Part shown: piece by piece, positions 860 to 59,608 of the stretch
How positions within the stretch are numbered: the stretch's first letter is position 1
Layout: each line of letters begins with the position of its first letter
Sequence record: NC_100331.1
Strand: one strand, 5' to 3'
Origin: Escherichia phage vB_EcoS_HASG4
DNA length: 64,000 nt
Notes under the pieces: model-generated
The model's database searches: none
Told to the model about the DNA's origin: nothing
The model's input: only the letters and a program-made list of their open reading frames with translations
Made by a program: the position numbers and the translations under genes

Positions 860-938
860 TTGTTACGTTCTCCATTAAAGGGATTAGATTAATTCAGCAT
901 TACCCGCTATTTATAAGCGGGTAATAATAAATTAACTA

Positions 939-1334
939 TTAAAGACCATAAGCCAACGCATCAGCGATAAAACTAACATCCTCACCGGATACGCTGGAAC
1001 GAATCCCGGCACAAGTATATACCTTTGCGCTGATCAATTGATCATCGAGGCAAGCGGGGCAAGGCGCAACCACTGCGAAAGCTAAACCGGATTTTACCGC
1101 GTCAATAATAATTGTTTCCTGCTTCATCGTGTCAACATAAACACCTTTTGCTTTAATATGGCTGGTTAGTTTACCTTGCATATATGCAAACGTTGTAACT
1201 TGCATTGCATCATTGAAATCTAACAATTCATCAATAACGTGCCCCGCCTCGACGTGGTAACGTTCACCATTAGAATAAACCAGAACAATGGAAGACTGAG
1301 CGCGGTCAAATGGAATGCGATTAGATTTAGCCAT
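939..1334 (-). CDS. hypothetical protein
   Basis: 131 aa ORF; HVE and PCPAC residues faintly deaminase-like but spacing atypical. Confidence 0.5.
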   Translation of the reverse strand: MAKSNRIPFDRAQSSIVLVYSNGERYHVEAGHVIDELLDFNDAMQVTTFAYMQGKLTSHIKAKGVYVDTMKQETIIIDAVKSGLAFAVVAPCPACLDDQLISAKVYTCAGIRSSVSGEDVSFIADALAYGL

Positions 1335-1371
1335 GTTTATAACTCCAGTTAGTTTAATAAGGGGGTTTAAT

Positions 1372-1629
1372 TTACTTGATAATAATCTGCATTTGATATG
1401 GCGTTAATTCACCATTTACGGGTAAATTATTATCACTCAACCACTCATAAAAAGCGTCATCATCGTCAAAGGGAACAATATCATTATCACGATAATCGAC
1501 CGTAATAATCCCATCTGTATTAGTTTTGGCGGCTAGGATAGGTCCGAAGCTGTAAACTTTATCGGATTCCATTTCATCCGGTGAAATAAATGCTTTTTCG
1601 TCCAGCGTTTTGGGTAATGTAACTTTCAT
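1372..1629 (-). CDS. hypothetical acidic protein
   Basis: 85 aa ORF in compact minus-strand array. Confidence 0.5.
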   Translation of the reverse strand: MKVTLPKTLDEKAFISPDEMESDKVYSFGPILAAKTNTDGIITVDYRDNDIVPFDDDDAFYEWLSDNNLPVNGELTPYQMQIIIK

Positions 1630-1686
1630 TCTAATTTAGCTCCTGTAATAGCGGCTATATTTCAAGCCGCTAGGGGAATAATTTAA

Positions 1687-3351
1687 TTACGCGAAAAATT
1701 TACCATTCTTAAAGTCAATCAAGGTGCGCTGACCGTTTGCATAGGTAATAACATGCGTTTGTGTCCAGCTTGACGCGCCAACGTTATAACCCATGTCCAG
1801 ACTACCAGACACGCCAGCGGTGTATACGCCGCCGTAAATACTGGCGGTATGAGTGTGCCCCGTGTTTAATTTGCCCAATTTCTTAAACTGTTTCGGATTG
1901 CCACGGCTGCCGTTTATGCCGTTGTGACCGTGTACGCCGCATTCAATGCCTGCAATCTTGAAAGATTGATCAGTGGTCAGAAAAATAGCGTTAAACTCAC
2001 AACCTGCAACCTTACGCAGCGCATAATCTAGCACGTTGAAAGTATCGTCTTTTTCTGCAATAGCTCCATAAATCGCAGCATTAAGGCGGTGATATAGTTC
2101 CGCGTTTGCTGGGTCGTCTTTAATGTTAGCATTACGATCATCCAGCCAACGGGATAGCGCCAAATCGTGGTTTGATTCAACAATGATCGTTTGAGCAAAA
2201 TCGCGCTCCATCGATTCCAGCACGCGCCCGGTATCGATAAGATCATCCAGAACTTTATCACGTCCGGCGGCGTATTGTTTCGCTAGGAATACACCGGAGG
2301 CACGATTATGATGATTGCGTGATGTAAAATCATGCACGTCATGGACGAATTGATATTTTGGCTTGAGAATATCAAGCAAGCTATTTTCCCCAGCCCATGA
2401 TGCAACGGCGCAAGCGTCATCCAATTTTTCGGCGTGGACGTCGCCATATTGTAAACCTAAAACGTGCCCCGATGTTTCATAGCATCCGGCGGGAGTAGCG
2501 CAAACATTCAGATCATAAAATACGCCGCTTTCATCCATCGTTTCAAGCTGGCGAACAAAAAATTCTCCGTCTTCGTCGAACTCGACAATAAGCGCACCGA
2601 AGTTATGCAGCGCCTCGGCCTTTTGTCCTGCTTTCTGCTGGATGTAGTTTTTTAACGTTGCCGTTCCGGTTGAATACATACGGCGCACAATTTCACCTTT
2701 TAAAGCTGGCACGCTTTCAGCGGTAATTTTAGCCGCTCCGATTGCCAGACCTTCGAGATTAAGCGCGGTTGCAGTTTCAGCGAATCCAGAAAGCGGATAA
2801 TCTGCGGTGGGCAAAACATTAATTTCAGCCATGAAAGCAAAACGGCGATTGTTTAAAAATACGTTTTTGCTGCAAATATATTTATCAAACGCAGAATCAT
2901 ATTTGATTCCGTCTGCCCCTTCCCCATTTTGAAAACCGTTTTTATTATAAATATACTTAGAAACAAGCAAATCAGCGCCAATAAATTGGGCATATTGTTC
3001 AAGCGAGGCTAAAAAGTTTTTATGCGGGAAAGTATTATTCTGAATCGATGTAATAATAAAGCGTTTGCCTTGTTTTACTTCCCATTGCTCCACCGTGCTA
3101 GAAATAACTCCAGCGGCTTCAGGGCGGTCATCGTTTTTTATGGCTTTTGCTGTTTTTGCCGCTTTTGGTTTCGCTGGTTTATTTGCTTCCAACCAGTCGC
3201 AGATAGCGGTCGAGTGTTTTGTAGTATCGTATACCGCTTTTGATATATCGTCGCAGACTTCCAGTTTAGTAGCGCGCAGACGTTTACCATAGAAATTAAA
3301 GTCAGCGGCAAGGTTGAGAATCTGGGCTTGTTTTTCTGCGGAAATAATCAT
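1687..3351 (-). CDS. A1: A1-like metallophosphoesterase (pre-early host takeover protein candidate)
   Basis: 554 aa; calcineurin-like motifs GDVHAE, VHDVHD, ESNHD, GHNG, GHTH; size/position match T5 A1. Confidence 0.8.
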   Translation of the reverse strand: MIISAEKQAQILNLAADFNFYGKRLRATKLEVCDDISKAVYDTTKHSTAICDWLEANKPAKPKAAKTAKAIKNDDRPEAAGVISSTVEQWEVKQGKRFIITSIQNNTFPHKNFLASLEQYAQFIGADLLVSKYIYNKNGFQNGEGADGIKYDSAFDKYICSKNVFLNNRRFAFMAEINVLPTADYPLSGFAETATALNLEGLAIGAAKITAESVPALKGEIVRRMYSTGTATLKNYIQQKAGQKAEALHNFGALIVEFDEDGEFFVRQLETMDESGVFYDLNVCATPAGCYETSGHVLGLQYGDVHAEKLDDACAVASWAGENSLLDILKPKYQFVHDVHDFTSRNHHNRASGVFLAKQYAAGRDKVLDDLIDTGRVLESMERDFAQTIIVESNHDLALSRWLDDRNANIKDDPANAELYHRLNAAIYGAIAEKDDTFNVLDYALRKVAGCEFNAIFLTTDQSFKIAGIECGVHGHNGINGSRGNPKQFKKLGKLNTGHTHTASIYGGVYTAGVSGSLDMGYNVGASSWTQTHVITYANGQRTLIDFKNGKFFA

Positions 3352-3449
3352 GGTAATAAAACTCCATTAAAGGGATTAAAAAACGTTTGTTATTGGCAAA
3401 TATTGCCAAATATAACGCCTATTATTTGAGGCGTTATAATTTGCAATAT

Positions 3450-3665
3450 TTAACTAATCGGCATCAGGCTAGAACTAACACCACAAGCAACGGCGGCAAT
3501 AAAACAAATAAGACCTAAACGCTTTGCTAACTTAGATTTACGTTTAAAATAATATGAATCCAGATCATTTTGGAAATAAGCAAACAATAACGAGGCCGCT
3601 ACAATAAATAATCCTAGAATGAGGGATTCAGTAGGGTAAAAGATCATTTTAATAACTCCAGTCAA
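3450..3665 (-). CDS. small membrane protein
   Basis: 71 aa, two hydrophobic segments. Confidence 0.4.
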   Translation of the reverse strand: MTGVIKMIFYPTESLILGLFIVAASLLFAYFQNDLDSYYFKRKSKLAKRLGLICFIAAVACGVSSSLMPIS

Positions 3666-3703
3666 AGGAAATTATAGTGGGGAGTATTCCCCACTAATTA
3701 AAT

Positions 3704-4111
3704 TTATTCACCTGCGGCCTGTTTTACTTCATCGGCAACGCCCAATAGTTGCGCCACGGCGTCCAACGTTTCTAATTTTGCGCTTTCCAGTGATGCCAGA
3801 TCGTCAACGTCTTTGATAATACCGGAATCGATGGCATGTTTTGCAATAACGCGCACATAATGCGCTTTGCGGATAGAACTGCCGCCGCCAACCTTGCGAG
3901 GTTTATCGCTTTTCTGATACGCTTTCGCGCTGGTCAATTTTGAGCGAACGGACACGGGAGAAGCCGCACCTACTGCTTTCGCGATCTCTTTCAAGCCGTC
4001 GCTATTTGCGAAATCTAAACCGTTTTCATTGATTAGCTGCTGATACATGGTAACAGCCTGCTGGGTGTTTTCTTCATTCCAAGAAAATTTTACGGTTTTA
4101 ACGTTAGTCAT
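3704..4111 (-). CDS. hypothetical protein (A2-like by size and position)
   Basis: 135 aa ORF downstream of A1-like gene. Confidence 0.55.
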   Translation of the reverse strand: MTNVKTVKFSWNEENTQQAVTMYQQLINENGLDFANSDGLKEIAKAVGAASPVSVRSKLTSAKAYQKSDKPRKVGGGSSIRKAHYVRVIAKHAIDSGIIKDVDDLASLESAKLETLDAVAQLLGVADEVKQAAGE

Positions 4112-4209
4112 GGTAAAAACTCCTATTAGTTTAATTTAAGGGATAAGATTAACATAATGTTAATCGTTATATACCCCGAACTACTGGGGTATATAAAGTT
4201 AACACTAAA

Positions 4210-4461
4210 TTACAAAACAGCTTCCCATTTTTCGTTGCGTTGAACAACCTTTACAACATCGCCGGATTTAACGCGAACGCTAAAAACGGTTTTGCCGTTG
4301 TTACTGCGTTCCGTTTCAGCGTATACCGCGTCGATTGTATCGAACGGCATAAGCGCCGCACCTTTAATGCGTTCGGCCTTTCCGGTTAACTCATCCGTTT
4401 TAGTAACGAAAGGAATAAAAACGGATTGACCAATTTTTGGCGCGGTAATAACGTTTTGCAT
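4210..4461 (-). CDS. hypothetical protein
   Basis: 83 aa ORF. Confidence 0.45.
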   Translation of the reverse strand: MQNVITAPKIGQSVFIPFVTKTDELTGKAERIKGAALMPFDTIDAVYAETERSNNGKTVFSVRVKSGDVVKVVQRNEKWEAVL

Positions 4462-4688
4462 AGTATAAACTCCTAGTTATTTGGGGATTATTCCGCATTA
4501 CCTGCTAGAAGGTAGCAGGTAATAAGTAACAATCCGCTCGCCAGTTTAACCAATTTAAAGAACTCCACGTAGGCCGCTATATCCCAGTTAGGGGGCGGGA
4601 TGCATTATGGTAAGCACCGACCGTCAAATTTTATCAAGTTATCGCTCTTATCGAACTGAGTACATCTTAAAACCTATCGGCTAGGTTG

Positions 4689-4892
4689 TCAAACGGTTTT
4701 TTGCAATTTTTTATGATTTTCTTTCAAGTCAATCATAATATTTCGCCAGATCATTTCTAGACCTTGCTGGCGACCTCTCTTGTACTGCGTGAATCGGTAT
4801 TTTACCGATCTTTGCGCTACTGTCAACAAATTTTTTGTTTTGCTATCTAGTGCCTTAATAGGCTTGCCAGTGATCAATAAAGTTTGTTTCAT
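4689..4892 (-). CDS. hypothetical basic protein
   Basis: 67 aa ORF. Confidence 0.3.
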   Translation of the reverse strand: MKQTLLITGKPIKALDSKTKNLLTVAQRSVKYRFTQYKRGRQQGLEMIWRNIMIDLKENHKKLQKTV

Positions 4893-5080
4893 ATCGTCGA
4901 TTCCTTATAATAGATAAGTTTACCGCCGATAGGCTTTAAGATGTACCCAATTTTTAAAGAGCGTGGCGGTAAACTTCCCGCCGTGTAGTTCGTCATTGCC
5001 GCCCTACGTGATAAATAATAGGGGATTCCCGAAAATGGCGCAACCTTATTTTTGTAAAGAAACGTAAAGACAAAATTCAC
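4889..5080 (-). CDS. hypothetical protein
   Basis: 63 aa ORF, overlaps previous stop. Confidence 0.25.
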   Translation of the reverse strand: MNFVFTFLYKNKVAPFSGIPYYLSRRAAMTNYTAGSLPPRSLKIGYILKPIGGKLIYYKESTI

Positions 5081-5685
5081 CGGACGGCGTGCGGTGACGG
5101 CCTAAAATTAAAAGAAACGGGCGCGCGAATACCACAAAACAAAGCAAATAGGCAAGTAATTTTTTCATTTATATTTGCTTTCCCCTACTTGACAAAATCT
5201 AAAAAGCTCGTGGTAGCGATAAACGGCTTATCCCCTTATGATGGGATGGCTAAAAACTTTATTGCGTTCTAGGGCGTTTTAGGCGGCTCATTTTCGATTT
5301 AACAAATATCTAACAAAAGCAAAATTGAAAAATAGTTGAAAAAGGTCTTGACTTTTAAAAATCAAGGGGCATTGCATTAATTTATAAAATAAATTAATTG
5401 ACTTTTATTTGTTGTTGTGTATTAGAAAGATAGCAAACTAATAATTACTAGAATGATAATCATGCTGGTGGATTGTAACGGCTTAAATTATTAGCAGACT
5501 ACTAATCCCGGAAAATCTCATTAGCCAACTAACTGTTTCATAAGTTATAATATACATATAAATTAATGAGAAATAATAATTATAAGAAAACGTAACCGAT
5601 AGGAATAATAACTATAAAAATAATCACTACTATAATAATAACTATAAGAAACTATCGGCCTAAGTGAGAACCACTATCATTTAAG

Positions 5686-5706
5686 TTATCCACAAAGTTA
5701 TCCACA
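5686..5706 (+). promoter_or_regulatory. two tandem DnaA-box consensus sites (TTATCCACA x2)
   Basis: gttatccacaaagttatccacagc read directly, in AT-rich 1 kb intergenic region. Confidence 0.6.
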
Positions 5707-6060
5707 GCACTTTTTGACTTGACACGATATGCGGCGATACAAGGACTTTTGCTCAGACTTACCCACAGGTTATCCTACTGTATAAATATACAAGGTAAAA
5801 AGATAGTGTTAACAACTGCAATCAATTTTAAGCGGCCTAAATCGCTTTCTAACGAGCAAAACGCTGTAGGGTAATATTAAAGTAAAGCCTCAACGTGTCG
5901 GCCTGGTGGCTTCGCCGTGTTTTGCTCTTTACTATACCGCTGCGCGGTTAGCATAAAAATAAGCGTTAGGCAAGGAAAATAAAAAGGTAAAATAATATTT
6001 GCCCCTAGAAAGAAAATACCTTTATCATTCACTCACCGATTAACGAGGGAGGCCGAACAA

Positions 6061-7053
6061 ATGAGGCTTTATAAACCAGATAACGCAACCGTCTTAAAAG
6101 GTGCATTGCGCAACCTGCTGGATGGTAGCAGAACAACCAGCATTAAACATTTTGTTTTCAATATTGAAACACTTCATCGTAATTTTCTTGATGATTACGA
6201 TGCTTATAATATGAATAGTTTTCTACCGTTATATAATCAAGGGGCAACGCTTGTTTTATATAATCAGGAATCTCACTTGCTTACTAGTCGAGGGCCAGAT
6301 ACTGATTTTATTATAGTGAAAGGCAGTACAGTAAAAGCCTATGATGCGGGGGCGGGCTTAGAAGTTTTCACGATAGAAAATTATGAGCCTTATGATAAGG
6401 ATCTTTATGACGTAGAAAATTTTCTCGATTCATTTTGGCGTTATTTATCAATTGGGTGGAATCGGTCGGATTATGACGGGTATCGTTTTGCGGCTGTAAT
6501 GGCTTTTGATGATAACGGTAATTTTTTGTTACCGTCGGAATTATACCCGTATGTATATAATGATTTAATAGAGGAGGCTGGTTTTACTTTCTGGAAAGAT
6601 GAAGATCAGCCTATTGACAATATAGAAAACCATGCTGTAAATTCTAACACTCAAAGCGTTAACACTCAAACTACTGAAAACAAAGGAAAAAATACCATGA
6701 CCAAGATCGCTAATATCGTTGCCGCTAATAAATCCGCTGTTGTAAATGCTGCAAAACTGGAAGCGGGTAAAATTGCACTGACTCAAATCACGAAAGTAGC
6801 GGCTAAAAAAGCGCCGTTTATGATTAAAGGTTATATTGATACGCCGATTGGTCGTGTAGTGATCGCTAACCTATTGAGTGTAGCGGTTGACCAGTACGCC
6901 CCAACTAACCAAAAGGCAAAAGCGGTAGCAGGCGCGGCTATGGAAGCGGCAATGCTGGAAATGGTGCAAAGTTTTAACATCGCTGAAATGATTGATGAAA
7001 TGGTAAAAGGTATCGATATTTCTACTTTTACCACTAACACCGAAAGCGAGTAA
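6061..7053 (+). CDS. hypothetical protein
   Basis: 330 aa; RBS GAGGGAGG upstream. Confidence 0.65.
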   Translation: MRLYKPDNATVLKGALRNLLDGSRTTSIKHFVFNIETLHRNFLDDYDAYNMNSFLPLYNQGATLVLYNQESHLLTSRGPDTDFIIVKGSTVKAYDAGAGLEVFTIENYEPYDKDLYDVENFLDSFWRYLSIGWNRSDYDGYRFAAVMAFDDNGNFLLPSELYPYVYNDLIEEAGFTFWKDEDQPIDNIENHAVNSNTQSVNTQTTENKGKNTMTKIANIVAANKSAVVNAAKLEAGKIALTQITKVAAKKAPFMIKGYIDTPIGRVVIANLLSVAVDQYAPTNQKAKAVAGAAMEAAMLEMVQSFNIAEMIDEMVKGIDISTFTTNTESE

Positions 7054-7118
7054 TAATATTTAGCGGGGATTATTTCCCCGCTTTACTATTCCCTTGTTAA
7101 CTAATAGGAGGCTAACTA

Positions 7119-7613
7119 ATGGCTGAGGAAAAATACGGCTTCTCGCTAGGGGAAGTGAGCACGGCTAAACACGATATGATCATTTTAGTTGATTGTCATA
7201 CTGGCTATTGCGGGGAAGGGAACACCGAAGAATATTTTGTTCCTGCTGGTACGGATCTGGACGCTTTAGCTCACGAAATGGCTATGGATAATGCTTCTCG
7301 TTTTGGCAGCGATGGCTATGAAGACGAGGATACTGGCGAATGGTATGAAAATGAAAACGTATACGCAAGTCTTTATCATTATCAGTTAAGTAAATCCGGC
7401 ACATATGTAAATGGCGGCGATCCTATTAATTCCGTTGTGAAATTAATTATTAAATATGGTGGCGTCGAGATAATTGATAACAAAGCGGTAATATATGCAA
7501 ACCGATTAAAACAGCTTGTTTATATTCCTGATAATACCCGATGGGAGGAATACGCTGTTTTGCATGACGAATTGAAACGATGTTTCAATATTGAAGCCCT
7601 ACAAGTAGTCTAA
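7119..7613 (+). CDS. hypothetical protein
   Basis: 164 aa; RBS AGGAGG. Confidence 0.65.
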   Translation: MAEEKYGFSLGEVSTAKHDMIILVDCHTGYCGEGNTEEYFVPAGTDLDALAHEMAMDNASRFGSDGYEDEDTGEWYENENVYASLYHYQLSKSGTYVNGGDPINSVVKLIIKYGGVEIIDNKAVIYANRLKQLVYIPDNTRWEEYAVLHDELKRCFNIEALQVV

Positions 7614-7718
7614 TGTAAAGTTTTGTAAAGGTCGCCTTTTATGGTGGCCTTTTTTGTTATAATGCCTTTACACCAAAACGGTGGATTGAAAATTTTCCCA
7701 AAAATTTGGAGGCTTAAA

Positions 7719-7949
7719 ATGGTTGCATACTCTTCTGCTAGTCATCTGTTTACCGCGCAAGGCTGGGTATCTAATCGCGTCATTATTCATGAAATGGTGC
7801 AGGAGTTCGGCATTGCTAAAACGTATAATACCATTCAGGAACTATATAACGCCGATAAAATCGATCAGCAAACGGCTGGCTTTTTGCTGGATACCCTGAA
7901 AGCTGAACATTGCACTAAAAAGCAAGCTGCAAAAATTGTCTTAATGTAA
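7719..7949 (+). CDS. hypothetical protein
   Basis: ORF 7641-7949 trimmed to internal ATG preceded by GGAGG. Confidence 0.5.
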   Translation: MVAYSSASHLFTAQGWVSNRVIIHEMVQEFGIAKTYNTIQELYNADKIDQQTAGFLLDTLKAEHCTKKQAAKIVLM

Positions 7950-7950
7950 T

Positions 7951-7985
7951 TAATAACGGGGGGGGGGTATTATATCCCCCGATAA
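7951..7985 (+). terminator. G10-tract hairpin (terminator-like)
   Basis: aataacggggggggggtattatatccccc; 10 G then 5 C. Confidence 0.4.
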
Positions 7986-8002
7986 CTAGGAGGCTATCAC
8001 AA

Positions 8003-8152
8003 ATGGTTATTTTTCGAGCTATTTTAGCGGGTATCTTGGGCGCTATTTTATCGTTATTTGCAATAGCTTTCGGTGTTCACGCCGTTATTATCGGCGCGGG
8101 TATCGCCGCATTTTCTTATCTGCTGGGCTGCATGACTAGTAAAGGAGAATAA
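8003..8152 (+). CDS. small hydrophobic peptide
   Basis: 49 aa, single TM-like helix, RBS AGGAGG. Confidence 0.45.
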   Translation: MVIFRAILAGILGAILSLFAIAFGVHAVIIGAGIAAFSYLLGCMTSKGE

Positions 8153-8154
8153 AA

Positions 8155-8367
8155 ATGATTCGTAACGTTTCCCTTGCACGTTCGAAAGGCTTTAGGCTGG
8201 TGGACGTTAACACGTTCGAGCGTGAAGATTGTAAAATCGAATATGTAGCACGTAACAAAAATGCCTTTCGTGTTACTGAGAAAAAATTCGACAAGCGCGG
8301 CAACGTGATCGCTGAAACAGTTAAACATTTTGCCACCTTTTATGCTGCGTTTCGTGGGGTATTATAA
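8155..8367 (+). CDS. hypothetical protein
   Basis: 70 aa; RBS AAAGGAGAA. Confidence 0.5.
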   Translation: MIRNVSLARSKGFRLVDVNTFEREDCKIEYVARNKNAFRVTEKKFDKRGNVIAETVKHFATFYAAFRGVL

Positions 8368-8368
8368 A

Positions 8369-8713
8369 ATGGTTATTTATGAAGGCAACCGCTTTGTTAC
8401 TAATTGCCGTCCGGCATTACTAGCAAACTACTTAAATCAGCTTTCCCCAGCTTATAAGGGCGTTATTAATATTTATGAGGGCAAGGCGCATTATAAAATC
8501 AATGCGGTCGTTGCCCGTGAACTAGCGTTTCAATTTTTGACCTTTGCATCTTGTGACGTTCAGGTCATGGGTGAGGCATTAATTGCAGAAAATGAAGATG
8601 ATTTTATTAATATTTTCCGCAAGATATGCACCGAGCGCCTGATCATGAAAGGCGCTTATATTCAATCCACTGCGGATAGTATTGAAACAGCGTTTCGAAA
8701 GGTGGCACAATGA
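8369..8713 (+). CDS. hypothetical protein
   Basis: ORF 8330-8713 trimmed to ATG abutting upstream stop. Confidence 0.5.
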   Translation: MVIYEGNRFVTNCRPALLANYLNQLSPAYKGVINIYEGKAHYKINAVVARELAFQFLTFASCDVQVMGEALIAENEDDFINIFRKICTERLIMKGAYIQSTADSIETAFRKVAQ

Positions 8714-8868
8714 AAAAGTTTTTAATAGCTGGTATGTTTCCTTTGTTGCCTTATGTAATTTGCTGGGCTTTATATGCTCATGGTGCTAGTGTTCCCGGTG
8801 TGGCTTCATTTGGTGTATCGGCTGGTTTTCTAACCGGACTATTGGCAAGCGTATATTTACGCAAATAA
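8710..8868 (+). CDS. small membrane peptide
   Basis: 52 aa hydrophobic; start overlaps upstream stop. Confidence 0.4.
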   Translation: MKKFLIAGMFPLLPYVICWALYAHGASVPGVASFGVSAGFLTGLLASVYLRK

Positions 8869-8886
8869 TTAATAACGGGAGTTATT

Positions 8887-9090
8887 ATGAGCAATAAAAT
8901 TATTGTAACCAAAATCAGTACAATGGTTGATGTTTTTTACGTGCCCGATACGCCGGAGAATCGGCAAGCGGTTGAGCGTGGCGAGTATGATAAAGTGATT
9001 TATGATCACGATGGTTATTATCAGCATTTGGCGGATTCCTACGGGGAGGAGGAAAAAATCACGCATCGACTACCGGAGGAGGATTTATGA
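8887..9090 (+). CDS. hypothetical protein
   Basis: 67 aa; RBS GGGAG. Confidence 0.5.
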   Translation: MSNKIIVTKISTMVDVFYVPDTPENRQAVERGEYDKVIYDHDGYYQHLADSYGEEEKITHRLPEEDL

Positions 9091-9240
9091 AACGATGGTT
9101 TAATCACTGGTATAAACGGTTTTTAGTACGCCGTCGCAAGTCTAGGCATCAAGATGAGTGGAGGGAGTGGGCAAAGCGTAACGGTTGCCCACTACTATAA
9201 TAATCACGGGGCGCAACTAGTAAGAAGTGCCCCCAATTCT

Positions 9241-9770
9241 CAAATGAGAATCATTCTCATTTGACCGCGCCCGCGATGATTAGCCTGCTAATGGTTAGGG
9301 TGTTACGTGTCGCCTTGTGTGATCGTTAGCGTGCTAACTAATTTTCAAGCCTCCTCCAATTTTCCCCTTGTTTTAGTATCCCCGCCAAAATTAAACGCGT
9401 TAGAATGCGATTCAGGACGTTTTAAGCCTATATTAGAATTATTCACTGCATAGGAATACTGTATATTTATACAGTAGAATAACCTGGGGATAAGTCTGTG
9501 GATAACGCTTCAAAATGGCTAGGGTTCTGTCAAGTCAAATCGTGCTGTTGATAAGTCTGTGGATAACTTAAATAACAGTGTTTCTCACTTCCGTTTTTAA
9601 ATGCGAATCATTATCATTCGCATTTCACTAGCTAACCGATAATCACTCCACTTTTTAAATGAGAATCATTTCACTTCTTGAATAGTTCTCATTCCCTTTC
9701 TTAAATGCAAATCATTATCATTCGCATTTCACTTTTTAAATGAGATTGATTCTCATTATCATTCGCATTC
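9241..9770. repeat. family of palindromes (gagaatcattctc / gcgaatcattatcattcgc)
   Basis: inverted repeats at ~9241, 9596, 9655, 9697, 9735 read directly. Confidence 0.7.
9489..9567. promoter_or_regulatory. two copies of gataagtctgtggataac, each with a DnaA-box complement TGTGGATAA
   Basis: 18-bp direct repeat at 9489-9506 and 9550-9567. Confidence 0.6.
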
Positions 9771-9800
9771 AGGCGAGCAAGGCAATTGCCCTGCGCTTTT

Positions 9801-10400
9801 GTGCAAATCCGACATTTGCCCCCATGGATTACGCGTGGGCATGTATGTGCGAATCCGACAATTTTTGGTAGTGTGCAAATCCGACCCGAAAAATTTTTAT
9901 AGTGTGCGAATCCGACAATGAATTTTCCTAAAAACTCCAGCAATCACGAACTGCGTTCGAATCCTGTGGAATTAGCTAGAGTATGTGCAAATCCGACATG
10001 TGTTGAGCTGTGCGAATCCGACAAGATTTTTGTGACTTCGATTGGAGGGTGTGTGATTGTATAGGTTTGAGGAGAAGATGAGAGAGCGAGAGAAATTTTG
10101 GGACTAGAAGGATGTGGGCGCAAGATTGGTGCGGAGCACCTGATTTGCGGGGATTTTGGGGGAGAGTTGAGATAATTTGGGAAGATTTGAGATAGGTGCA
10201 GAAAAAGTAAAATTTTATTAGCTAAATGGAGCAAAATAGCTTGACAAGTGAAAATTCTTGTGGCTCTAAAAACTCAGGCAATCATGGGCCTTCGGCCCGA
10301 AATAATGCTGCTATTTTCAGGAGAGTAAGAGTTCCTAAAAACTTAGGCGTTTGTGCAAATCCGACCATAAATTTCTAGAAACACAGTGTGCAAATCCGAC
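9801..10400 (+). repeat. GTGCRAATCCGAC direct repeats (8 copies; ninth at 12153)
   Basis: copies at 9801, 9847, 9873, 9903, 9985, 10010, 10353, 10388, same orientation, irregular spacing. Confidence 0.8.
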
Positions 10401-26792: not shown

Positions 26793-27107
26793 TTACAGAT
26801 CGGGGCGTTCATCTTCGAAACAGCCTGAGCTAATTCCTTCTCCGAATCCTACAAAGCCATCAAATTCATCATTTGAGATGCCCATAATCATTGCTTCCAT
26901 TTTCCTAATCTCCGAAATTTTCATGCCTGCTTTACTATTCTTATAATACTTGCGAGGGTTCCCACACATCCAACAAGAACAGATGCAAGGAGTAGTAGTG
27001 ATAATACCTAATCGCTTAGGGCTTTCTTCATGTGGAAAGACTGTCCAATACTTCTTGCGGTTGTTCTTCACACGTTGCCGGTGATGGCGTCTTAATGCTC
27101 GATCCAC
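26793..27107 (-). CDS. Cys-rich hypothetical protein
   Basis: 104 aa; CICSCWMC. Confidence 0.45.
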   Translation of the reverse strand: MDRALRRHHRQRVKNNRKKYWTVFPHEESPKRLGIITTTPCICSCWMCGNPRKYYKNSKAGMKISEIRKMEAMIMGISNDEFDGFVGFGEGISSGCFEDERPDL

Positions 27108-27188: not shown

Positions 27189-27557
27189 TTACATCGCCTG
27201 AGTAAATGTACGACTAATAACGTCGTTCTGCTGTTCACGAGTCAGTGCATTAAAACGTACAGCGTACCCTGAAACACGGATAGTTAATTGAGGGTATTTT
27301 TCAGGATGTTTCTGTGCATCCAAAAGCTGATCACGGCTTAATACATTGACATTTAGGTGCTGACCGCCTTCGATTTGAGGGGCGACTTCCACTTTGACTT
27401 CACGGAAGGCTTCGGGATCGAATTGTGGTGTGATACCTTCTAGATCTTCAACTAGAACTTTCTGTTTAAGTTCACCATTGTCGGAGTATAGCTGAATAAT
27501 CTGATTTTCATGAACAAGGTTAATTACGCCAGATTTAAGATTTTGATATGCTTTCAT
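27189..27557 (-). CDS. grcA: autonomous glycyl-radical cofactor (GrcA/YfiD-like)
   Basis: 122 aa; C-terminus [11 protein letters not shown]...[19 protein letters not shown] matches PFL/GrcA glycyl-radical domain. Confidence 0.8.
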
Positions 27558-53232: not shown

Positions 53233-53430
53233 TTAAGTTCTCAGCAGAATATCTATTGAGGTACTTAGTTCATTATAATTGAAGGGCCGATTTGGATTTG
53301 AGGTTACAATTTTCCACGCTAGGGTAGTCTTAGGACTTTCTTCCCCTTCCTTACGTGTAATCATATTAGCAGCACTCAATGAGGTACGGTGAATTTTAGT
53401 TTTACGGTGTAGATGTACGACGTTTCCCAT
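53233..53430 (-). CDS. small hypothetical protein
   Basis: ORF 53233-53499 trimmed to ATG abutting PhoH stop. Confidence 0.35.
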   Translation of the reverse strand: MGNVVHLHRKTKIHRTSLSAANMITRKEGEESPKTTLAWKIVTSNPNRPFNYNELSTSIDILLRT

Positions 53431-54496: not shown

Positions 54497-54525
54497 TTGA
54501 CATTTGCCCTTGAATAAGCTATAAT
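54497..54525 (+). promoter_or_regulatory. consensus sigma70 promoter (TTGACA-17-TATAAT)
   Basis: ttgaca 54497-54502, tataat 54520-54525, then RBS AAAGGAGGG. Confidence 0.75.
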
Positions 54526-54554: not shown

Positions 54555-56429
54555 ATGAATCGCAATGATGAACTAAAATACAAGGAAATGCAGTCCTTGA
54601 TTAGAAACTGCAAAGAAATTATTGAGGGTTCTGCTGATGAAGAGCTCCTCTTTAATAATGCGAATAAACCCTCTGAGCGTTTCCCTACACAAAGGGATAT
54701 GCTTGCAGGGGAATTGAGTAAATATCTGATTCTAGAAGAAATGCCAATTCAGATTCGAAATGCTCATATGATTGGCGATATTCACTTTCATGATGCTGAT
54801 TACGCTGCTTTAGGCATGACTAACTGTTGCCTAGTAGCCCTGGAAGATATGTTGAAAAATGGTATGAAAGTTGGTAATGCTGAAATTAGCACTCCAAACT
54901 CTATCACTACTGCGGCGGCTATTACTGCTCAGATTATCACTCAGGTTAGCTCCCATCAGTATGGTGGTACTTCTGTAGATCGCCTTGATGAAGTATTAGC
55001 CCCTTATGTTCGTAAGTCCTATGATAAAAATCATGCGTTTGCAAAACGTTGGACTAAGGATGAAGCTAAAGCATCTGTAATGGCTACGGAGATGACTGAA
55101 AAAGAAGTCTATGATGCTTGTCAGGGTCTAGAGTATGAAATCAATACGATGTTCAACTCTAATGGTCAGAGTCCATTTATTACCTTTGGTTTTGGTCTAG
55201 GAACTTCTTGGGAAGCACGTCTAGTACAGAAAGCAATACTGAAAGTACGTATGGATGGCTTAGGTATCAATAAACGTACAGCTATCTTTCCGAAACTGGT
55301 GTTTGTTCTGCGTGATGGCGTAAATATGAAGCCAGGGGATGTTAACTATGACATCAAGAAGTTAGCTATGAAATGTACTGCTGAACGTATGTATCCAGAC
55401 TATATCAGCTATGATAAGGTTGTGGAAGTTACTGGTGACTATAAAGTTTCTATGGGCTGCCGTTCATTCCTAGCTGCTGCAGAAGATGGTGAAACTGCCG
55501 GTCGTAATAACTTAGGTGTTGTTTCTGTAAACTTGCCTAGAATTGCTATCGAAGCTGAAGGAAATATTGATCTATTCTTTGATTTGCTTGAGCTACGTGT
55601 TGATACAGCGTTAAAAGCGTTGGAGTGGAGAGTTGATCGCTTAAAATACATTCAAGCTAAAGCCGCGCCCATCCTCTATATGTCAGGGGCCTTTGGGTTA
55701 CGCTTAGGGCCTGATGAATATGTATTCGATCATTTCTATAACCGTGCTTCTGTATCTCTGGGGTATATTGGTTGCCATGAAATGCTACAGTTCATGTTTG
55801 GCAAAGATGTAGATACAATGTCAGATACCTGTATTAAGTTTGTACAACGTGTTCTACAGTATATGCGGGATAGAGTGGACCAGAAGAAGGAAGAGACTCA
55901 GTTAGGTTATAGCCTGTATGCTACACCATCAGAATCCCTATGTGATCGCTTTTGTCGCCTAGACCGTGAATATTTCCCGGAACATGAAGATATTATGTCC
56001 AAAGGTTACTACACTAACTCACACCACCTCGATGTGGAGCGTAAGGTTGCTCCAAACGTGAAGTTTGATTATGAATCTAATTTTACTCCAATTGCATCTG
56101 GTGGGTGTATTTCCTACGTGGAATTACCAGACATGAAACGATTCCCGGATGCACTGGAATGGGTTATTAACTATGCTGCTAGTAAGGTTCATTACTTTGG
56201 TATTAATACTCCAGTGGATTCTTGTGGTAAATGTGGGTTCTTGGGTGAGACAGTAGCTTCTGAAGATGGATTTAAGTGCCCTATCTGTGGTAATCATGAC
56301 CCTGAAACTCTTGAAGTAACTCGTCGAGTTTGTGGGTATCTTGGAAATCCAGGCGCTCGTCCGTTTAACCCAGGCAAACAACATGAGGTTATGGGCAGGG
56401 TGAAACATCAGGATATTCGAGCTAAATAA
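54555..56429 (+). CDS. nrdD: anaerobic ribonucleotide reductase (class III) large subunit
   Basis: 624 aa; C-terminal glycyl-radical motif RVCGYLG and Cys-rich zinc site. Confidence 0.9.
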   Translation: MNRNDELKYKEMQSLIRNCKEIIEGSADEELLFNNANKPSERFPTQRDMLAGELSKYLILEEMPIQIRNAHMIGDIHFHDADYAALGMTNCCLVALEDMLKNGMKVGNAEISTPNSITTAAAITAQIITQVSSHQYGGTSVDRLDEVLAPYVRKSYDKNHAFAKRWTKDEAKASVMATEMTEKEVYDACQGLEYEINTMFNSNGQSPFITFGFGLGTSWEARLVQKAILKVRMDGLGINKRTAIFPKLVFVLRDGVNMKPGDVNYDIKKLAMKCTAERMYPDYISYDKVVEVTGDYKVSMGCRSFLAAAEDGETAGRNNLGVVSVNLPRIAIEAEGNIDLFFDLLELRVDTALKALEWRVDRLKYIQAKAAPILYMSGAFGLRLGPDEYVFDHFYNRASVSLGYIGCHEMLQFMFGKDVDTMSDTCIKFVQRVLQYMRDRVDQKKEETQLGYSLYATPSESLCDRFCRLDREYFPEHEDIMSKGYYTNSHHLDVERKVAPNVKFDYESNFTPIASGGCISYVELPDMKRFPDALEWVINYAASKVHYFGINTPVDSCGKCGFLGETVASEDGFKCPICGNHDPETLEVTRRVCGYLGNPGARPFNPGKQHEVMGRVKHQDIRAK

Positions 56430-56471
56430 GCTAATCAGCCAGGTTGCTAGTCGACCTGGCTTTTATTTTAT

Positions 56472-56500
56472 TTGCTTTCAGCTAAAAATTTATGTATAAT
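56472..56500 (+). promoter_or_regulatory. T5-type early promoter (TTGCTT-17-TATAAT) with conserved leader
   Basis: ttgctt 56472-56477, tataat 56495-56500, leader agatttataaatttgagagg. Confidence 0.7.
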
Positions 56501-56528
56501 AGATTTATAAATTTGAGAGGAGAAGACT

Positions 56529-56906
56529 ATGAAAGTAAAACCCTATATCATTGTTTCAACCTGTGGGAGCTACCAATTAGCAGTAGAAACCATAGAAGAA
56601 GCTATTTTTGCTGCTACGGGTGATTATTCTCGTCTTGAGGGGGTTGGTTATCCTAGCATTATGGGTAATTGGGTGGAAACTAATTTAGATGTTAATCCAT
56701 ATAATTCTGATTATGAAGATGAAGAAGAGGTACGGAATAACATTGAATTTGTATATAAAAGAATCTTAAGTATCTATGAGTATCAGGGCAGCCCTACTGA
56801 GTATGTGGATATTACTGAAGTAGCTAAGAAGCGCCTTAAATACGTTTATGCCAATTTTTCAAATGAAGACCTGGAAACAGTTGCAGTGGAGTTTAATAAT
56901 GACTAA
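56529..56906 (+). CDS. hypothetical acidic protein
   Basis: 125 aa; RBS GAGAGGAG. Confidence 0.55.
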   Translation: MKVKPYIIVSTCGSYQLAVETIEEAIFAATGDYSRLEGVGYPSIMGNWVETNLDVNPYNSDYEDEEEVRNNIEFVYKRILSIYEYQGSPTEYVDITEVAKKRLKYVYANFSNEDLETVAVEFNND

Positions 56907-57105: not shown

Positions 57106-57295
57106 TGGCTTAAATGCTGCACTGGAAAATGCATTGATGCAGCAGTGGGAGGCTGGATATAAGGATGGGGTTGAATCTTGTGCAAAAATAATGGATATTA
57201 TGGCTAATTCTGTAGTTGGGAAAGCCCATCCAGAAGTATCTGATATACTCCATAACCTTAGTAAAAACTTCAGAGAACAGGTGAAAAATGCGTAG
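57074..57295 (+). CDS. hypothetical protein
   Basis: 73 aa. Confidence 0.45.
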   Translation: MAFSKPMLPDNGLNAALENALMQQWEAGYKDGVESCAKIMDIMANSVVGKAHPEVSDILHNLSKNFREQVKNA

Positions 57296-58109
57296 ATTAA
57301 TTATTATTAGCGGTGCAGGTTTGAGTGTTGAAAGTGGTGTACGAGCCTTCCGTACTGATACTGCTAGTGGTAAAGCATTGTGGGATGATTATGACTTAGA
57401 AGAGGTATGTAATATTCATGCCTTTCGTGGTAATTTTTATCATAAAACTCATATGTTTTACAACAAGCGTCGTGAAGAGCTAAAAACTGTTGAACCCAAT
57501 CTTGCACACTTGCGTATTGGTGAATGGTATAAGAAATATCCAGGTCAAGTAGTAAACTTGACTACCAACGTTGATGACCTTATTGAGCGTGCTGGAGTAC
57601 CAAAAGAAGACATACTCCATATTCATGGGTACCTGAAAGAAATTATCGTAGAGCACGCATTCGACCAGACACATGATATTATTGATATTGGATATAGTTC
57701 TATTGACCCCGATGACTTTGACTGGGTTAAACCTAATGTAATTTTCTTTGGGGAACATGCTCCAGCGTACAAAACAATGTATGAGATTTTTGATGGCATT
57801 ACCAGTCAAGATATGATCATTGTGGTTGGTTGCTCTAACCAAGTAATTAACTTCTACTGGGAATTATTTCCTGTTCTTAATCTGACTGCTGCAAAACTTA
57901 TGGTAGTTAACTACTATGATAGTGCCCTAGCAGCGGAACCAGGCTATCAAGGTATGACTCGTAGTGAGATGTACCAGTTGGAAGAACGTGGGATCCCTTA
58001 CTGGAGTAAAGGTGCGGTGGATGCTTTTAGTGACCCGGGTTTTATTGCTCGTGTAGAAGCTCATCTAGAGGGTAGACCTTATATGCCGGGGAAACAAATA
58101 TGTCCATAA
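57288..58109 (+). CDS. Sir2-like (sirtuin family) protein
   Basis: 273 aa; N-terminal GAGLSVESGVRAFR matches Sir2 NAD-binding motif. Confidence 0.7.
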   Translation: MRRLIIISGAGLSVESGVRAFRTDTASGKALWDDYDLEEVCNIHAFRGNFYHKTHMFYNKRREELKTVEPNLAHLRIGEWYKKYPGQVVNLTTNVDDLIERAGVPKEDILHIHGYLKEIIVEHAFDQTHDIIDIGYSSIDPDDFDWVKPNVIFFGEHAPAYKTMYEIFDGITSQDMIIVVGCSNQVINFYWELFPVLNLTAAKLMVVNYYDSALAAEPGYQGMTRSEMYQLEERGIPYWSKGAVDAFSDPGFIARVEAHLEGRPYMPGKQICP

Positions 58110-58282
58110 TTAAATCTGTGTATACACACCCTGATGATATATTTGTATGGGCGGACGGTAGTTGGTGCTATCGCTGTGAGCTGTGGGAAATGGACTATAA
58201 ATCCGATGACTATGGTGTCATATATGTTGATACGGTTGAGTATGATACGTTCTTAGAAAGGGACAAAAGTGGAAATAAGTAA
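58100..58282 (+). CDS. small hypothetical protein
   Basis: 60 aa. Confidence 0.4.
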   Translation: MSIIKSVYTHPDDIFVWADGSWCYRCELWEMDYKSDDYGVIYVDTVEYDTFLERDKSGNK

Positions 58283-58775
58283 TACTCCGATTATTTTTCT
58301 AGACATTGATGGAGTGCTCAATTCGAGCATCTCCCACCATCATGCACCTGATGATGAAAAGATTTTCTTTGGAAGTGACTGGGTTTTCAAACCGCTTCTC
58401 AAGGCTTTTCAGGACTTTATTCGTCCTTCTCCGATAATGATTGTTGGAGTATCCTCATGGTTCTCTGTCAGGAATGAGGTGGAGAACGTTCACATTATGA
58501 CCGGATTAGGTCTTATCGATCGTTTTCTAGGTACAACGGATTTTACGGGGGGTGGATTATCTAGGGGTAATTCTGTTCTTCGTTTCGTTGAAAAGCATAA
58601 GCTCAAACATTGGTGTGTGCTGGATGACGCTGGTGCTATGATGTATCAGTATCCAACAGTTATAGTCAATGGTAGGACTGGGATAAATCTTCAAGATTTA
58701 AAAGCTGTTAGCTATATGCTAGAATTTAGCCCAGATCTTGAAATGTGTAAATCCTTACAACAATTTAAGGTGTAA
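58269..58775 (+). CDS. HAD-like phosphatase candidate
   Basis: 168 aa; N-terminal FLDIDGVLN (DxDG motif). Confidence 0.55.
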   Translation: MEISNTPIIFLDIDGVLNSSISHHHAPDDEKIFFGSDWVFKPLLKAFQDFIRPSPIMIVGVSSWFSVRNEVENVHIMTGLGLIDRFLGTTDFTGGGLSRGNSVLRFVEKHKLKHWCVLDDAGAMMYQYPTVIVNGRTGINLQDLKAVSYMLEFSPDLEMCKSLQQFKV

Positions 58776-58777
58776 AT

Positions 58778-59206
58778 ATGTTCAATAATGTATTCTCTAA
58801 AGAAGCTAACCCAATTTTGGTTAACTTTTGGCGTACTCTCCCGGCTAGCCTGTATAATGAGGCTATTAACTCCTTGAAAATATGGTGTGAGAATAACGAA
58901 ATCTCCTTTGCTTTTAAAGATGATATTGATGAGGCTCCCTGTATTGGTTTAATTGTTCAGGTAGAGGAGGGTCTTGAAGAAATTGTCGGCTGGAAAGAGT
59001 TAGATGAAATGGGCTTAGTTTTTGCGTTAAACTATAAGCTGTTTATGCCTGCTAAGCATCGCCTCGTTGTTAACTATAAAACTAGTGAATCTCCTGGTTT
59101 TCAGGTTAATGAACGTTACGGTTGGTCTTACTCACCGGAAGAAGTGAATGAGGGGATTCAGAAACTTCGACGTTTCGGGTATATGATCCCAGGTTTAACT
59201 GCTTAA
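58778..59206 (+). CDS. hypothetical protein (paralog family member 1)
   Basis: 142 aa; shares ELDW/EMGL..ALN..LF.P pattern with next ORF. Confidence 0.55.
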   Translation: MFNNVFSKEANPILVNFWRTLPASLYNEAINSLKIWCENNEISFAFKDDIDEAPCIGLIVQVEEGLEEIVGWKELDEMGLVFALNYKLFMPAKHRLVVNYKTSESPGFQVNERYGWSYSPEEVNEGIQKLRRFGYMIPGLTA

Positions 59207-59215
59207 GGAGGCAGA

Positions 59216-59608
59216 ATGGAACAAGTATATTGGCGTCAGATTGACCCTAGTTTGGTGAAACGTGCGGAGAAGCTGCTACAACGTTGGTTGGGGGTAAGAC
59301 AAGCCTCCTTCACTTTTCCGGAGCAGCAAATAGACGATCCTTGTGTTGGTGTTTTCCTATCAGGCTACGCTAGGGAATGGGAATTGGATTGGAATGAATT
59401 GTCTGCTATGGGTTTAATTGTTGCACTAAATTTCTCTTTGTTCCATCCCCGTGGTTTGGCCATATGTCGTGTGCCTGATGACGGTTGTTCGCCCCATCTT
59501 TTACAGATGGAAGATGATATTTGGGAGTACACTCCAGATATTCTCAAAGAAGCTAAAGAACAATTAAATCGTGTTGGAATCTATGTTCTGGGGCTAAATG
59601 ATGAATAA
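59216..59608 (+). CDS. hypothetical protein (paralog family member 2)
   Basis: 130 aa; RBS AAGGAGG. Confidence 0.55.
   Translation: MEQVYWRQIDPSLVKRAEKLLQRWLGVRQASFTFPEQQIDDPCVGVFLSGYAREWELDWNELSAMGLIVALNFSLFHPRGLAICRVPDDGCSPHLLQMEDDIWEYTPDILKEAKEQLNRVGIYVLGLNDE

What the first reader, a model, noticed from the sequence alone, without database searches (positions are those of the whole stretch)
54555..56906. Class III RNR NrdD with no recognisable NrdG activase nearby
NrdD is intact (RVCGYLG), but the ORF that follows (56529-56906) lacks the CxxxCxxC radical-SAM motif, and no ORF in the window has it. Either the phage relies on host NrdG, the activase lies outside the window, or a non-canonical partner is used.
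Basis: inference. Interest (0 to 1): 0.45.

Follow-up and report, generated by a model that had tools for sequence, protein, structure and literature searches.

The report
Phage NrdD lacking its own activase
A T5-like coliphage carries an intact anaerobic ribonucleotide reductase gene (nrdD) and no gene for its activating enzyme anywhere in the genome; this was already tabulated for T5 in 2013 and is most simply explained by use of the host's NrdG.

Summary
The window is a Tequintavirus (T5-like), 99.5% identical to Escherichia phage vB_EcoS_EASG3. nrdD (54555-56429) is a full class III reductase catalytic subunit with every hallmark residue. It is under strong purifying selection (dN/dS 0.024 against T5) and has its own consensus promoter and terminator.

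No NrdG or radical-SAM activase was found in the window, in the complete EASG3 genome, or in the complete genome of a divergent T5 relative. The tests were motif scans, tblastn and a profile HMM with positive controls. This removes the reading that the activase lies outside the window.

The next ORF (56529-56906) is a fast-evolving ORFan found only in T5-like phages. It has one conserved cysteine and is separated from nrdD by a terminator, so it is not a plausible activase.

The best explanation is activation by host NrdG. nrdG is present in 5426 of 5426 complete E. coli genomes. The phage glycyl-radical loop is 81% identical to that of E. coli NrdD, against 51-53% for the protein core. This is inference; no experiment was found.

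The pattern is already published: Dwivedi 2013 lists T5, SPC35 and EPS7 as nrdB-nrdA-nrdD without nrdG. The finding is real, ordinary and already known.

The parts
54497..54525 (+). Promoter of nrdD: perfect sigma-70 consensus TTGACA-17-TATAAT, about 30 nt upstream of the ATG
   Evidence: 12 of 12 matches. T5 annotates early promoters in the same intergenic region.
54555..56429 (+). nrdD, the class III (anaerobic) ribonucleoside-triphosphate reductase catalytic subunit; 624 aa, no ATP-cone
   Evidence: Pfam NRDD 1.1e-171. NCBIfam NF006732 843.7 bits against a cut-off of 657. 54% identity to E. coli NrdD residues 113-705. PDB hits include T4 NrdD at 5e-177. dN/dS 0.024 against T5.
56223..56288 (+). 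Four-Cys zinc ribbon (C557, C560, C575, C578), the domain conjectured in the literature to contact NrdG
   Evidence: All four Cys columns are conserved in nine of ten aligned NrdDs; RB69 has Ser at the third. The conjecture that the Zn domain interacts with NrdG is in PMC4493059.
56325..56345 (+). Glycyl-radical motif RVCGYLG; the radical glycine is G594 (nt 56334-56336)
   Evidence: The 31-aa loop is 25/31 identical to E. coli NrdD residues 675-705.
56437..56461 (+). Intrinsic terminator (10-bp stem, T-run) directly after the nrdD stop codon, which makes nrdD monocistronic
   Evidence: A terminator is annotated at the same place in EASG3 and T5.
56529..56906 (+). 125-aa ORFan found only in T5-like phages (T5 ORF094, phrog_11748). 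It is not an activase and is probably unrelated to nrdD.
   Evidence: No Pfam or NCBIfam hit. PHROG family of unknown function. 21 homologues, those with long contigs or names being T5-like phages, 59-81% identical, with one invariant Cys. AlphaFold2 mean pLDDT 58. T5 annotates a promoter of its own in front of it.
27189..27557 (-). GrcA-like autonomous glycyl-radical protein (122 aa, RVSGY intact). It is a second glycyl-radical protein in this phage with no phage-encoded activase.
   Evidence: Pfam Gly_radical 3.7e-18. 74% identity to the C-terminal 74 aa of E. coli GrcA. NCBIfam GrcA 121 bits, below the cut-off of 170.

Best explanation
The T5-like phage makes a catalytically competent class III ribonucleotide reductase (NrdD) from its own early promoter and depends on the host for activation.

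Proposed steps:
1. Host NrdG, a radical-SAM [4Fe-4S] protein already present in anaerobically grown cells, uses host SAM and a host reductant to abstract a hydrogen from Gly594 in the C-terminal RVCGYLG loop.
2. The resulting stable glycyl radical supports many turnovers of NTP to dNTP, with formate as reductant. A small pool of host activase could therefore be enough.
3. Under aerobic conditions the phage's own NrdAB does the same job.

Shown here: the intact enzyme, purifying selection, absence of any phage activase, and universal presence of nrdG in the host species. Inferred: that host NrdG actually recognises and activates the phage protein.
For: - The enzyme is intact. The NRDD and NrdD equivalog models are passed far above their cut-offs. 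The residues aligned to the T4 catalytic set are all present: the NCC motif at C91/C92, C302 in GCRSF, N318/N319 in GRNNLG, the 4-Cys Zn ribbon, and G594.
- It is functionally constrained. dN/dS is 0.024 against T5. The motifs persist across T5-like lineages whose NrdDs are only about 60% identical.
- The phage has no activase. This rests on CxxxCxxC scans, tblastn, and an NrdG profile HMM run with filters off against all ORFs of 50 aa or more, best E=0.71, with controls at 1e-81 to 1e-84. The whole SHSML-45 genome gives the same result.
- The pattern holds across the clade. In the phage collection 2907 records have NrdD and 2273 have NrdG. The per-genus surpluses (Salmonella 271, Escherichia 125, Shigella 4) match the number of T5-like records (267, 127, 4).
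- The host supply is reliable. nrdG is present in 5426 of 5426 complete E. coli genomes.
- The activase-facing loop is host-like. It is 81% identical to E. coli in all three T5-like lineages, against 51-53% for the core. In enterobacterial phages that carry their own NrdG it is 58-65%.
- There is a parallel in the same genome. A GrcA-like glycyl-radical protein is 74% identical to host GrcA, and the phage has no PflA-type activase either.
- The literature says the glycyl radical lasts for dozens of cycles and that NrdG is a separate activating enzyme (PMC4493059; PMC2795772).
Against: - No experiment on T5 NrdD activation was found. Dwivedi 2013 states that it is unknown whether such incomplete gene sets are functional.
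- From my own recollection, T4 NrdD expressed in E. coli needed T4's own NrdG (Young et al. 1994). I could not retrieve that paper here. If correct, cross-activation by host NrdG is not automatic.
- The loop-similarity argument is weak. Only three NrdG-bearing enterobacterial phages were compared (five NrdG-bearing phages in all). The three T5-like lineages are not independent. Normalised to core divergence, phiTE (65% loop, 43% core) looks much like the T5-likes.
- From general knowledge, T5 shuts off the host and degrades its DNA. The NrdG pool would then be limited to what exists at the time of infection.
Confidence: 0.75

Rival explanations
1. A canonical nrdG exists elsewhere in the phage genome, outside the 64-kb window.
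For: The window covers only about half of a genome of roughly 120 kb. Some Demerecviridae do carry nrdG: Vibrio phage Dax has nrdD as gp73 and an NrdG homologue as gp77.
Against: The complete genome of the near-identical phage EASG3 (100% identical over the nrdD region) has no CxxxCxxC in any real ORF other than the 104-aa Zn-knuckle-type protein. It has no tblastn hit better than E=1.7 and no NrdG-profile hit better than E=0.71. None of its 226 annotated features is an activase. The whole SHSML-45 genome gives the same result, and published tables say the same for T5, SPC35 and EPS7.
Confidence: 0.02
2. A non-canonical phage-encoded partner, such as the downstream ORF 56529-56906 or another ORFan, activates NrdD or substitutes for NrdG.
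For: Many T5 early genes have unknown function. The ORF directly after nrdD is conserved in position among close T5 relatives.
Against: - The ORF has one conserved Cys, so on its own it cannot hold a [4Fe-4S] cluster.
- A terminator and a separate promoter lie between it and nrdD.
- It evolves much faster than NrdD: 59-81% identity against 95-99%.
- It is not annotated at that position in the divergent T5-likes RCIP0070 and SHSML-45, which still keep nrdD.
- No phage ORF has a radical-SAM-like Cys cluster in a protein of adequate size.
- No SAM-independent route to a glycyl radical is known to me.
Confidence: 0.06
3. The phage nrdD is a decaying or non-functional remnant that is never activated.
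For: The partner gene is missing. Dwivedi 2013 notes that function is unknown for incomplete RNR gene sets.
Against: - dN/dS is 0.024 against T5, with dS 0.23.
- The ORF is full-length with all catalytic, Zn-binding and radical residues, and these persist across lineages about 40% divergent.
- The gene is retained in roughly 550 T5-like records.
- It has a perfect consensus promoter.
Confidence: 0.04
4. NrdD is kept for a role that does not need the radical (for example nucleotide binding, a scaffold in a dNTP-synthesis complex, or a decoy that titrates host NrdG), or it is activated by a different host activase such as PflA.
For: The phage also encodes a GrcA-like protein that would use host PflA, so host glycyl-radical activases are relevant to this phage.
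Against: Selection preserves exactly the residues needed for radical chemistry and for NrdG-type recognition: RVCGYLG and the Zn ribbon. A scaffold role would not require them. As far as I know, PflA recognises the RVSGY context of PFL and GrcA, not that of NrdD.
Confidence: 0.06

Closest known systems
Bacteriophage T5 nrdD (AAX12030) and the nrdB-nrdA-phoH / nrdD arrangement of T5, SPC35 and EPS7
   Same: This is the same gene in the same synteny: nrdA, a small ORF and phoH on one strand, and nrdD diverging on the other, followed by a terminator, ORF094, ORF095 and Sir2. Identity is about 91% at DNA level and about 99% at protein level (pN 0.005). nrdG is equally absent.
   Different: Only allelic differences were seen. 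The window's phage is closest to EASG3.
Bacteriophage T4 / RB69 NrdD-NrdG
   Same: The NrdD is a short form without an ATP-cone (605 aa against 624 aa). The catalytic Cys/Asn residues and the glycyl-radical motif are the same, and the Zn ribbon is conserved apart from a Ser at the third Cys position in RB69. Identity is about 49%.
   Different: T4-type phages encode their own NrdG immediately downstream, overlapping the nrdD stop codon. Their glycyl loop has diverged further from the host's, at 58% identity against 81% here.
E. coli NrdD-NrdG (the host system)
   Same: Identity is 54% over the catalytic region, and the C-terminal loop VTRRVCGYLG.P..RPFN.GKQ.EV..RVKH is nearly the same. The best NCBIfam model for the phage protein is the enterobacterial-type NrdD equivalog.
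   Different: The phage protein lacks the N-terminal ATP-cone of about 100 residues. It is not encoded next to an nrdG, whereas the host gene pair is adjacent.
Vibrio phage Dax (Demerecviridae, Ermolyevavirinae) nrdD ... nrdG
   Same: It belongs to the same phage family, and its NrdD is 51% identical.
   Different: Dax NrdD keeps the ATP-cone (724 aa). An NrdG homologue (gp77, 57-58% identical to E. coli NrdG, annotated as hypothetical) lies three genes downstream. Absence of nrdG is therefore a trait of the T5 lineage (Markadamsvirinae) and not of the whole family.
GrcA (YfiD) spare glycyl-radical subunit. A T4 homologue, Y06I, is recalled from memory and was not checked here.
   Same: The phage protein at 27189-27557 shares the C-terminal glycyl-radical module with host GrcA at 74% identity. 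Like nrdD, it would need a host activase.
   Different: Its N-terminal half is unrelated, and the full-length GrcA equivalog cut-off is not reached (121 bits against 170).

Membership tests
Class III RNR catalytic subunit (NrdD) | Full-length match to curated NrdD models above their cut-offs | tested here: met
   Pfam PF13597 572.8 bits (cut-off 26.2). NCBIfam NF006732 843.7 bits (cut-off 657) and TIGR02487 586.5 bits (cut-off 326).
Class III RNR catalytic subunit (NrdD) | C-terminal glycyl-radical motif RVCGYxG | tested here: met
   RRVCGYLG at residues 590-597. Pfam Gly_radical 6.8e-23.
Class III RNR catalytic subunit (NrdD) | Four-Cys Zn ribbon upstream of the glycyl loop | tested here: met
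   C557, C560, C575 and C578 align with the E. coli, RB69 and Dax Cys columns; RB69 has Ser at the third.
Class III RNR catalytic subunit (NrdD) | Active-site Cys and Asn residues (T4 Cys79, Cys290 and Asn311 equivalents) | tested here: met
   TNCC (C91/C92), GCRSF (C302) and GRNNLG (N318/N319) are conserved in the alignment. The T4 residue numbering is from memory.
Class III RNR catalytic subunit (NrdD) | Cognate activase NrdG encoded next to nrdD or elsewhere in the same genome | tested here: not met
   No NrdG in the window, the whole EASG3 genome or the whole SHSML-45 genome. This is a feature of the two-gene system, not of the NrdD protein family itself.
Class III RNR catalytic subunit (NrdD) | Glycyl radical formation and NTP reduction | not testable with these tools
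   Needs EPR and activity assays.
NrdG / radical-SAM activase (candidate: ORF 56529-56906) | CxxxCxxC cluster-binding motif and similarity to NrdG or radical-SAM models | tested here: not met
   One Cys in total. No Pfam or NCBIfam hit. Not among the 20 best hits listed for the NrdG profile, the weakest of which had E=14.
NrdG / radical-SAM activase (candidate: ORF 26793-27107, CICSCWMC) | Invariant CxxxCxxC in a protein large enough for a radical-SAM core (the NrdG proteins compared here are 154-160 aa), plus model similarity | tested here: not met
   The protein is 104 aa. The first Cys of the motif is not invariant across homologues. No Pfam or NCBIfam hit. NrdG profile E=4.9.
GrcA autonomous glycyl-radical cofactor (27189-27557) | C-terminal PFL-type glycyl-radical domain with RVSGY | tested here: met
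GrcA autonomous glycyl-radical cofactor (27189-27557) | Full-length equivalog score | tested here: not met
   TIGR04365 scores 121 bits against a cut-off of 170, and only residues 50-122 match. I therefore call it GrcA-like.

The most novel reading that the evidence does not exclude
T5-like NrdD is not activated by host NrdG. Activation would instead go through an unrecognised route: a phage protein with no radical-SAM signature, or a different host activase such as PflA, which the phage's GrcA-like protein would also use. That would be a new way of installing a glycyl radical on a class III RNR. A milder version is that the phage loop has been shaped to out-compete host NrdD for a limiting NrdG pool.
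Probability: 0.05. Interest if true: 0.7.

Novelty: already known. Interest (0 to 1): 0.15.

Why it matters
If host NrdG does activate the phage enzyme, T5-like phages show a virus keeping only the catalytic, probably rate-limiting, half of a two-protein radical system and borrowing the activase from the host.

This bears on anaerobic (gut) replication of a phage group that is widely isolated for Salmonella and E. coli biocontrol. It also predicts that an nrdG deletion host would impair anaerobic growth of T5 but not of T4.

It is not a discovery. The gene pattern has been tabulated since 2013, and only the biochemical confirmation is missing.

Tried and rejected
- AlphaFold2 on the 125-aa downstream ORF with 17 homologues gave a mean pLDDT of 58. 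That is too poor for a meaningful fold search, so none was run.
- I asked whether the T5 neighbours annotated as Aeh1-ORF-like (HAD_SAK_2 at 58269-58775, DUF7415) travel with nrdG-less nrdD genes in Aeromonas phages. The HAD protein is essentially T5-specific. Its few Aeromonas and Proteus hits are weak (33-37% identity), and the one Aeromonas hit listed lies next to thymidylate synthase rather than nrdD. Aeromonas phage Ah1 does have nrdG. I dropped this lead.
- In SHSML-45 the best NrdG-profile hit is the ORF just downstream of nrdD (E=0.13). It is a 22-residue match with no Cys motif, which I take as chance.
- The only literal CxxxCxxC in a real ORF (26793-27107) belongs to a small, basic protein that looks like a Zn knuckle, not a radical-SAM enzyme.
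- I looked for a solved NrdG or NrdD-NrdG structure to map the interface. None exists; only PflA matches.
- I looked for the T4 gene 55.9 (nrdG) paper and for any report on cross-activation of a phage NrdD by host NrdG. Neither is in the searchable library.
- A search for papers with both 'T5-like' and 'nrdD' found only gene lists.
Full report
**Identity of the window.** The finding's region is 100% identical to Escherichia phage vB_EcoS_EASG3 (MK373799.1; Demerecviridae, Markadamsvirinae, Tequintavirus) and about 91% identical to phage T5. The whole window aligns to that record at 99.5%. Nearly all of the differences fall in the first 10.3 kb, which is the terminal-repeat region. In the nrdD region, window coordinate = record coordinate + 39.

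**Check of the observation.** ORF 54555-56429 (+) encodes a 624-aa protein. It matches Pfam NRDD (1.1e-171) and Gly_radical. It passes the NCBIfam NrdD equivalog models well above their cut-offs: 843.7 bits against 657, and 586.5 against 326. Identity is 54% to E. coli NrdD residues 113-705, so the protein lacks the N-terminal ATP-cone. It is 51% identical to the NrdD of Vibrio phage Dax. In the PDB it hits the T4 enzyme at 5e-177.

In an alignment with E. coli, RB69, Dax and other T5-like NrdDs, every hallmark is present:
- the NCC motif (C91/C92);
- GCRSF (C302);
- GRNNLG;
- the 4-Cys Zn ribbon (C557, C560, C575, C578);
- RRVCGYLG, with the radical glycine at G594.

The next ORF (56529-56906, 125 aa) contains a single Cys and has no Pfam or NCBIfam match.

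A six-frame regex scan found CxxxCxxC only in short non-coding scraps and in one real ORF, 26793-27107 (-), which has CICSCWMC. That ORF belongs to a conserved 104-aa family from T5-like phages (T5 ORF053; phrog_4499). Its invariant residues are RRHHR...TP.C.CSC.MC..PR, and the first Cys of the pattern is not invariant. It has no similarity to radical-SAM models and is well short of the 154-160 aa NrdG proteins compared here.

**Is the activase elsewhere?** I fetched the complete 120,715-bp EASG3 genome. None of its 226 annotated features is an activase. The tests were:
- CxxxCxxC occurs in no sizeable ORF other than the one above.
- tblastn with NrdG from E. coli, Vibrio phage Dax and Vibrio phage VMJ710 gives nothing better than E=1.7.
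- An NrdG profile HMM, run with all filters off against every stop-to-stop ORF of 50 aa or more, gives a best E of 0.71. The NrdG genes of Dax and RB69 score 1e-84 and 1e-81 as controls.
- A scan for any three Cys within 16 residues turned up only homing-endonuclease and Zn-finger-type proteins and ORFans, none with a radical-SAM match.

The complete genome of Shigella phage SHSML-45, a Tequintavirus whose NrdD is only about 60% identical, is equally devoid of NrdG. Its best profile hit (E=0.13) is a 22-residue chance match.

Counts across the phage collection agree. tblastn finds NrdD in 2907 records and NrdG in 2273. The per-genus surplus of NrdD over NrdG is 271 for Salmonella, 125 for Escherichia and 4 for Shigella. 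The numbers of T5-like records found by megablast are 267, 127 and 4.

Absence is not a property of the whole family. Vibrio phage Dax (Demerecviridae, Ermolyevavirinae) has an NrdG homologue three genes downstream of its ATP-cone-bearing nrdD.

**Gene organisation.** nrdD has a perfect sigma-70 consensus promoter (TTGACA-17-TATAAT, 54497-54525). A strong intrinsic terminator (56437-56461) lies eight bases after its stop codon. Both match the T5 and EASG3 annotations. The gene is therefore transcribed alone.

The downstream ORF has its own annotated early promoter in T5. Its 21 homologues are 59-81% identical, and those with long contigs or names are T5-like phages, whereas NrdD is 95-99% identical across the same phages. 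It is not annotated at that position in the divergent T5-likes RCIP0070 and SHSML-45, which still keep nrdD. Its AlphaFold2 model is of low confidence, with a mean pLDDT of 58. Nothing links it functionally to nrdD.

**Is nrdD functional?** Against T5, dS is 0.23 and dN is 0.005, giving dN/dS = 0.024. Against the 60%-identity alleles, synonymous sites are saturated while all catalytic motifs persist. This rules out a decaying remnant. It also argues against roles that do not need radical chemistry.

**Most likely mechanism.** Class III RNRs need the specific radical-SAM activase NrdG to install the glycyl radical, and they use formate as reductant (PMC2795772). The radical, once made, lasts for dozens of turnovers (PMC4493059). 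With no phage activase, the obvious source is the host. nrdG is present at 90% identity or more in 5426 of 5426 complete E. coli genomes.

The 31-residue glycyl loop of all three T5-like NrdD lineages is 25/31 (81%) identical to E. coli NrdD residues 675-705, while their cores are 51-53% identical. In enterobacterial phages that carry their own NrdG the loop is 58-65% identical, with cores as follows: RB69 59%, phAPEC8 44%, phiTE 43%.

This fits a constraint to remain a substrate of host NrdG, but it is only suggestive. The sample is small, the T5-like lineages are not independent, and phiTE's loop-to-core ratio is similar.

There is a parallel in the same genome. The protein at 27189-27557 (-) is GrcA-like. 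It is 74% identical to E. coli GrcA over the glycyl-radical module and has RVSGY intact. It too would need a host activase (PflA), because the phage has none.

I put 0.75 on host-NrdG activation. The remaining probability is spread over a non-canonical partner, another host activase, a radical-independent role, and non-function.

**Caveats.** No experiment on T5 NrdD activation was found in the searchable literature. My recollection is that T4 NrdD needed T4's own NrdG when expressed in E. coli (Young et al. 1994). I could not check that paper. If it is right, cross-activation cannot be assumed. No NrdG structure exists for modelling the interface.

**Comparison with what is known, and novelty.** Dwivedi et al. 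[quoted passage not shown] They describe phoH lying between the class I and class III genes in T5, SPC35 and EPS7. Their Table S1 lists those phages as nrdB-nrdA-nrdD with no NrdG accession. They also remark that the functionality of such incomplete sets is unknown. RNRdb (2009) already counted 30 phage NrdD against 21 NrdG.

The finding is thus a correct re-observation of a published pattern in a well-known phage group. I rate novelty as "already known" and interest as low. The one open point is biochemical: whether host NrdG cross-activates the phage enzyme. The experiments listed under next steps would test that directly.

Noticed in passing
window 27189-27557 (-): A GrcA-like 122-aa autonomous glycyl-radical protein. 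It is 74% identical to E. coli GrcA over the C-terminal 74 aa, with RVSGY intact and an unrelated N-terminal half. It is a second glycyl-radical protein with no phage activase. PFL makes formate, the class III RNR reductant, so the two genes may be functionally connected; this link is my speculation.
   Followed up: partly
window 26793-27107 (-): A conserved 104-aa protein from T5-like phages (T5 ORF053/T5.055, phrog_4499) with an RRHHR...TPCxCSCxMCGNPRK motif. It is probably a small Zn-binding basic protein. The EASG3 record annotates only a 35-aa fragment of it. It lies two genes downstream of the GrcA-like gene and holds the only literal CxxxCxxC in a real ORF of the window.
   Followed up: partly
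L011 3136-5812 (Shigella phage SHSML-45); L010 4007-5836 (Klebsiella phage RCIP0070): These T5-like genomes carry nrdD alleles only about 60% identical to T5's, in the same synteny. In SHSML-45 an endonuclease gene abuts and overlaps the nrdD start. This suggests replacement of the nrdD allele by horizontal exchange. Both alleles lack nrdG.
   Followed up: partly
window 1-10266: 241 of the 244 mismatches and all 30 gap openings between the window and MK373799.1 lie in the first 10.3 kb, the terminal-repeat / first-step-transfer region, which is 97% identical. The remaining 54 kb are essentially identical. The window therefore comes from a different isolate or assembly, or that end is recombinant.
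   Followed up: no
L007 6001-6483 (Vibrio phage Dax gp77); L013 3001-3474 (Escherichia phage nomo_130): Clear NrdG homologues are annotated as 'hypothetical protein' (Dax; 57% identical to E. coli NrdG in tblastn) and 'putative minor capsid protein' (nomo). These look like public annotation errors.
   Followed up: no
window 57288-59608 (+): Downstream of nrdD lie a Sir2-family protein (57288-58109), a HAD_SAK_2 domain protein (58269-58775) and a tandem pair of DUF7415 paralogues (58778-59206 and 59216-59608). All are conserved in T5-like phages and of unknown role.
   Followed up: partly
window 53233-53430 (-): A small ORF between nrdA and phoH matches Pfam DUF7430 at 3e-38. The SHSML-45 RefSeq record names its counterpart 'tail length tape measure protein', which is implausible for a 65-aa protein.
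   Followed up: no
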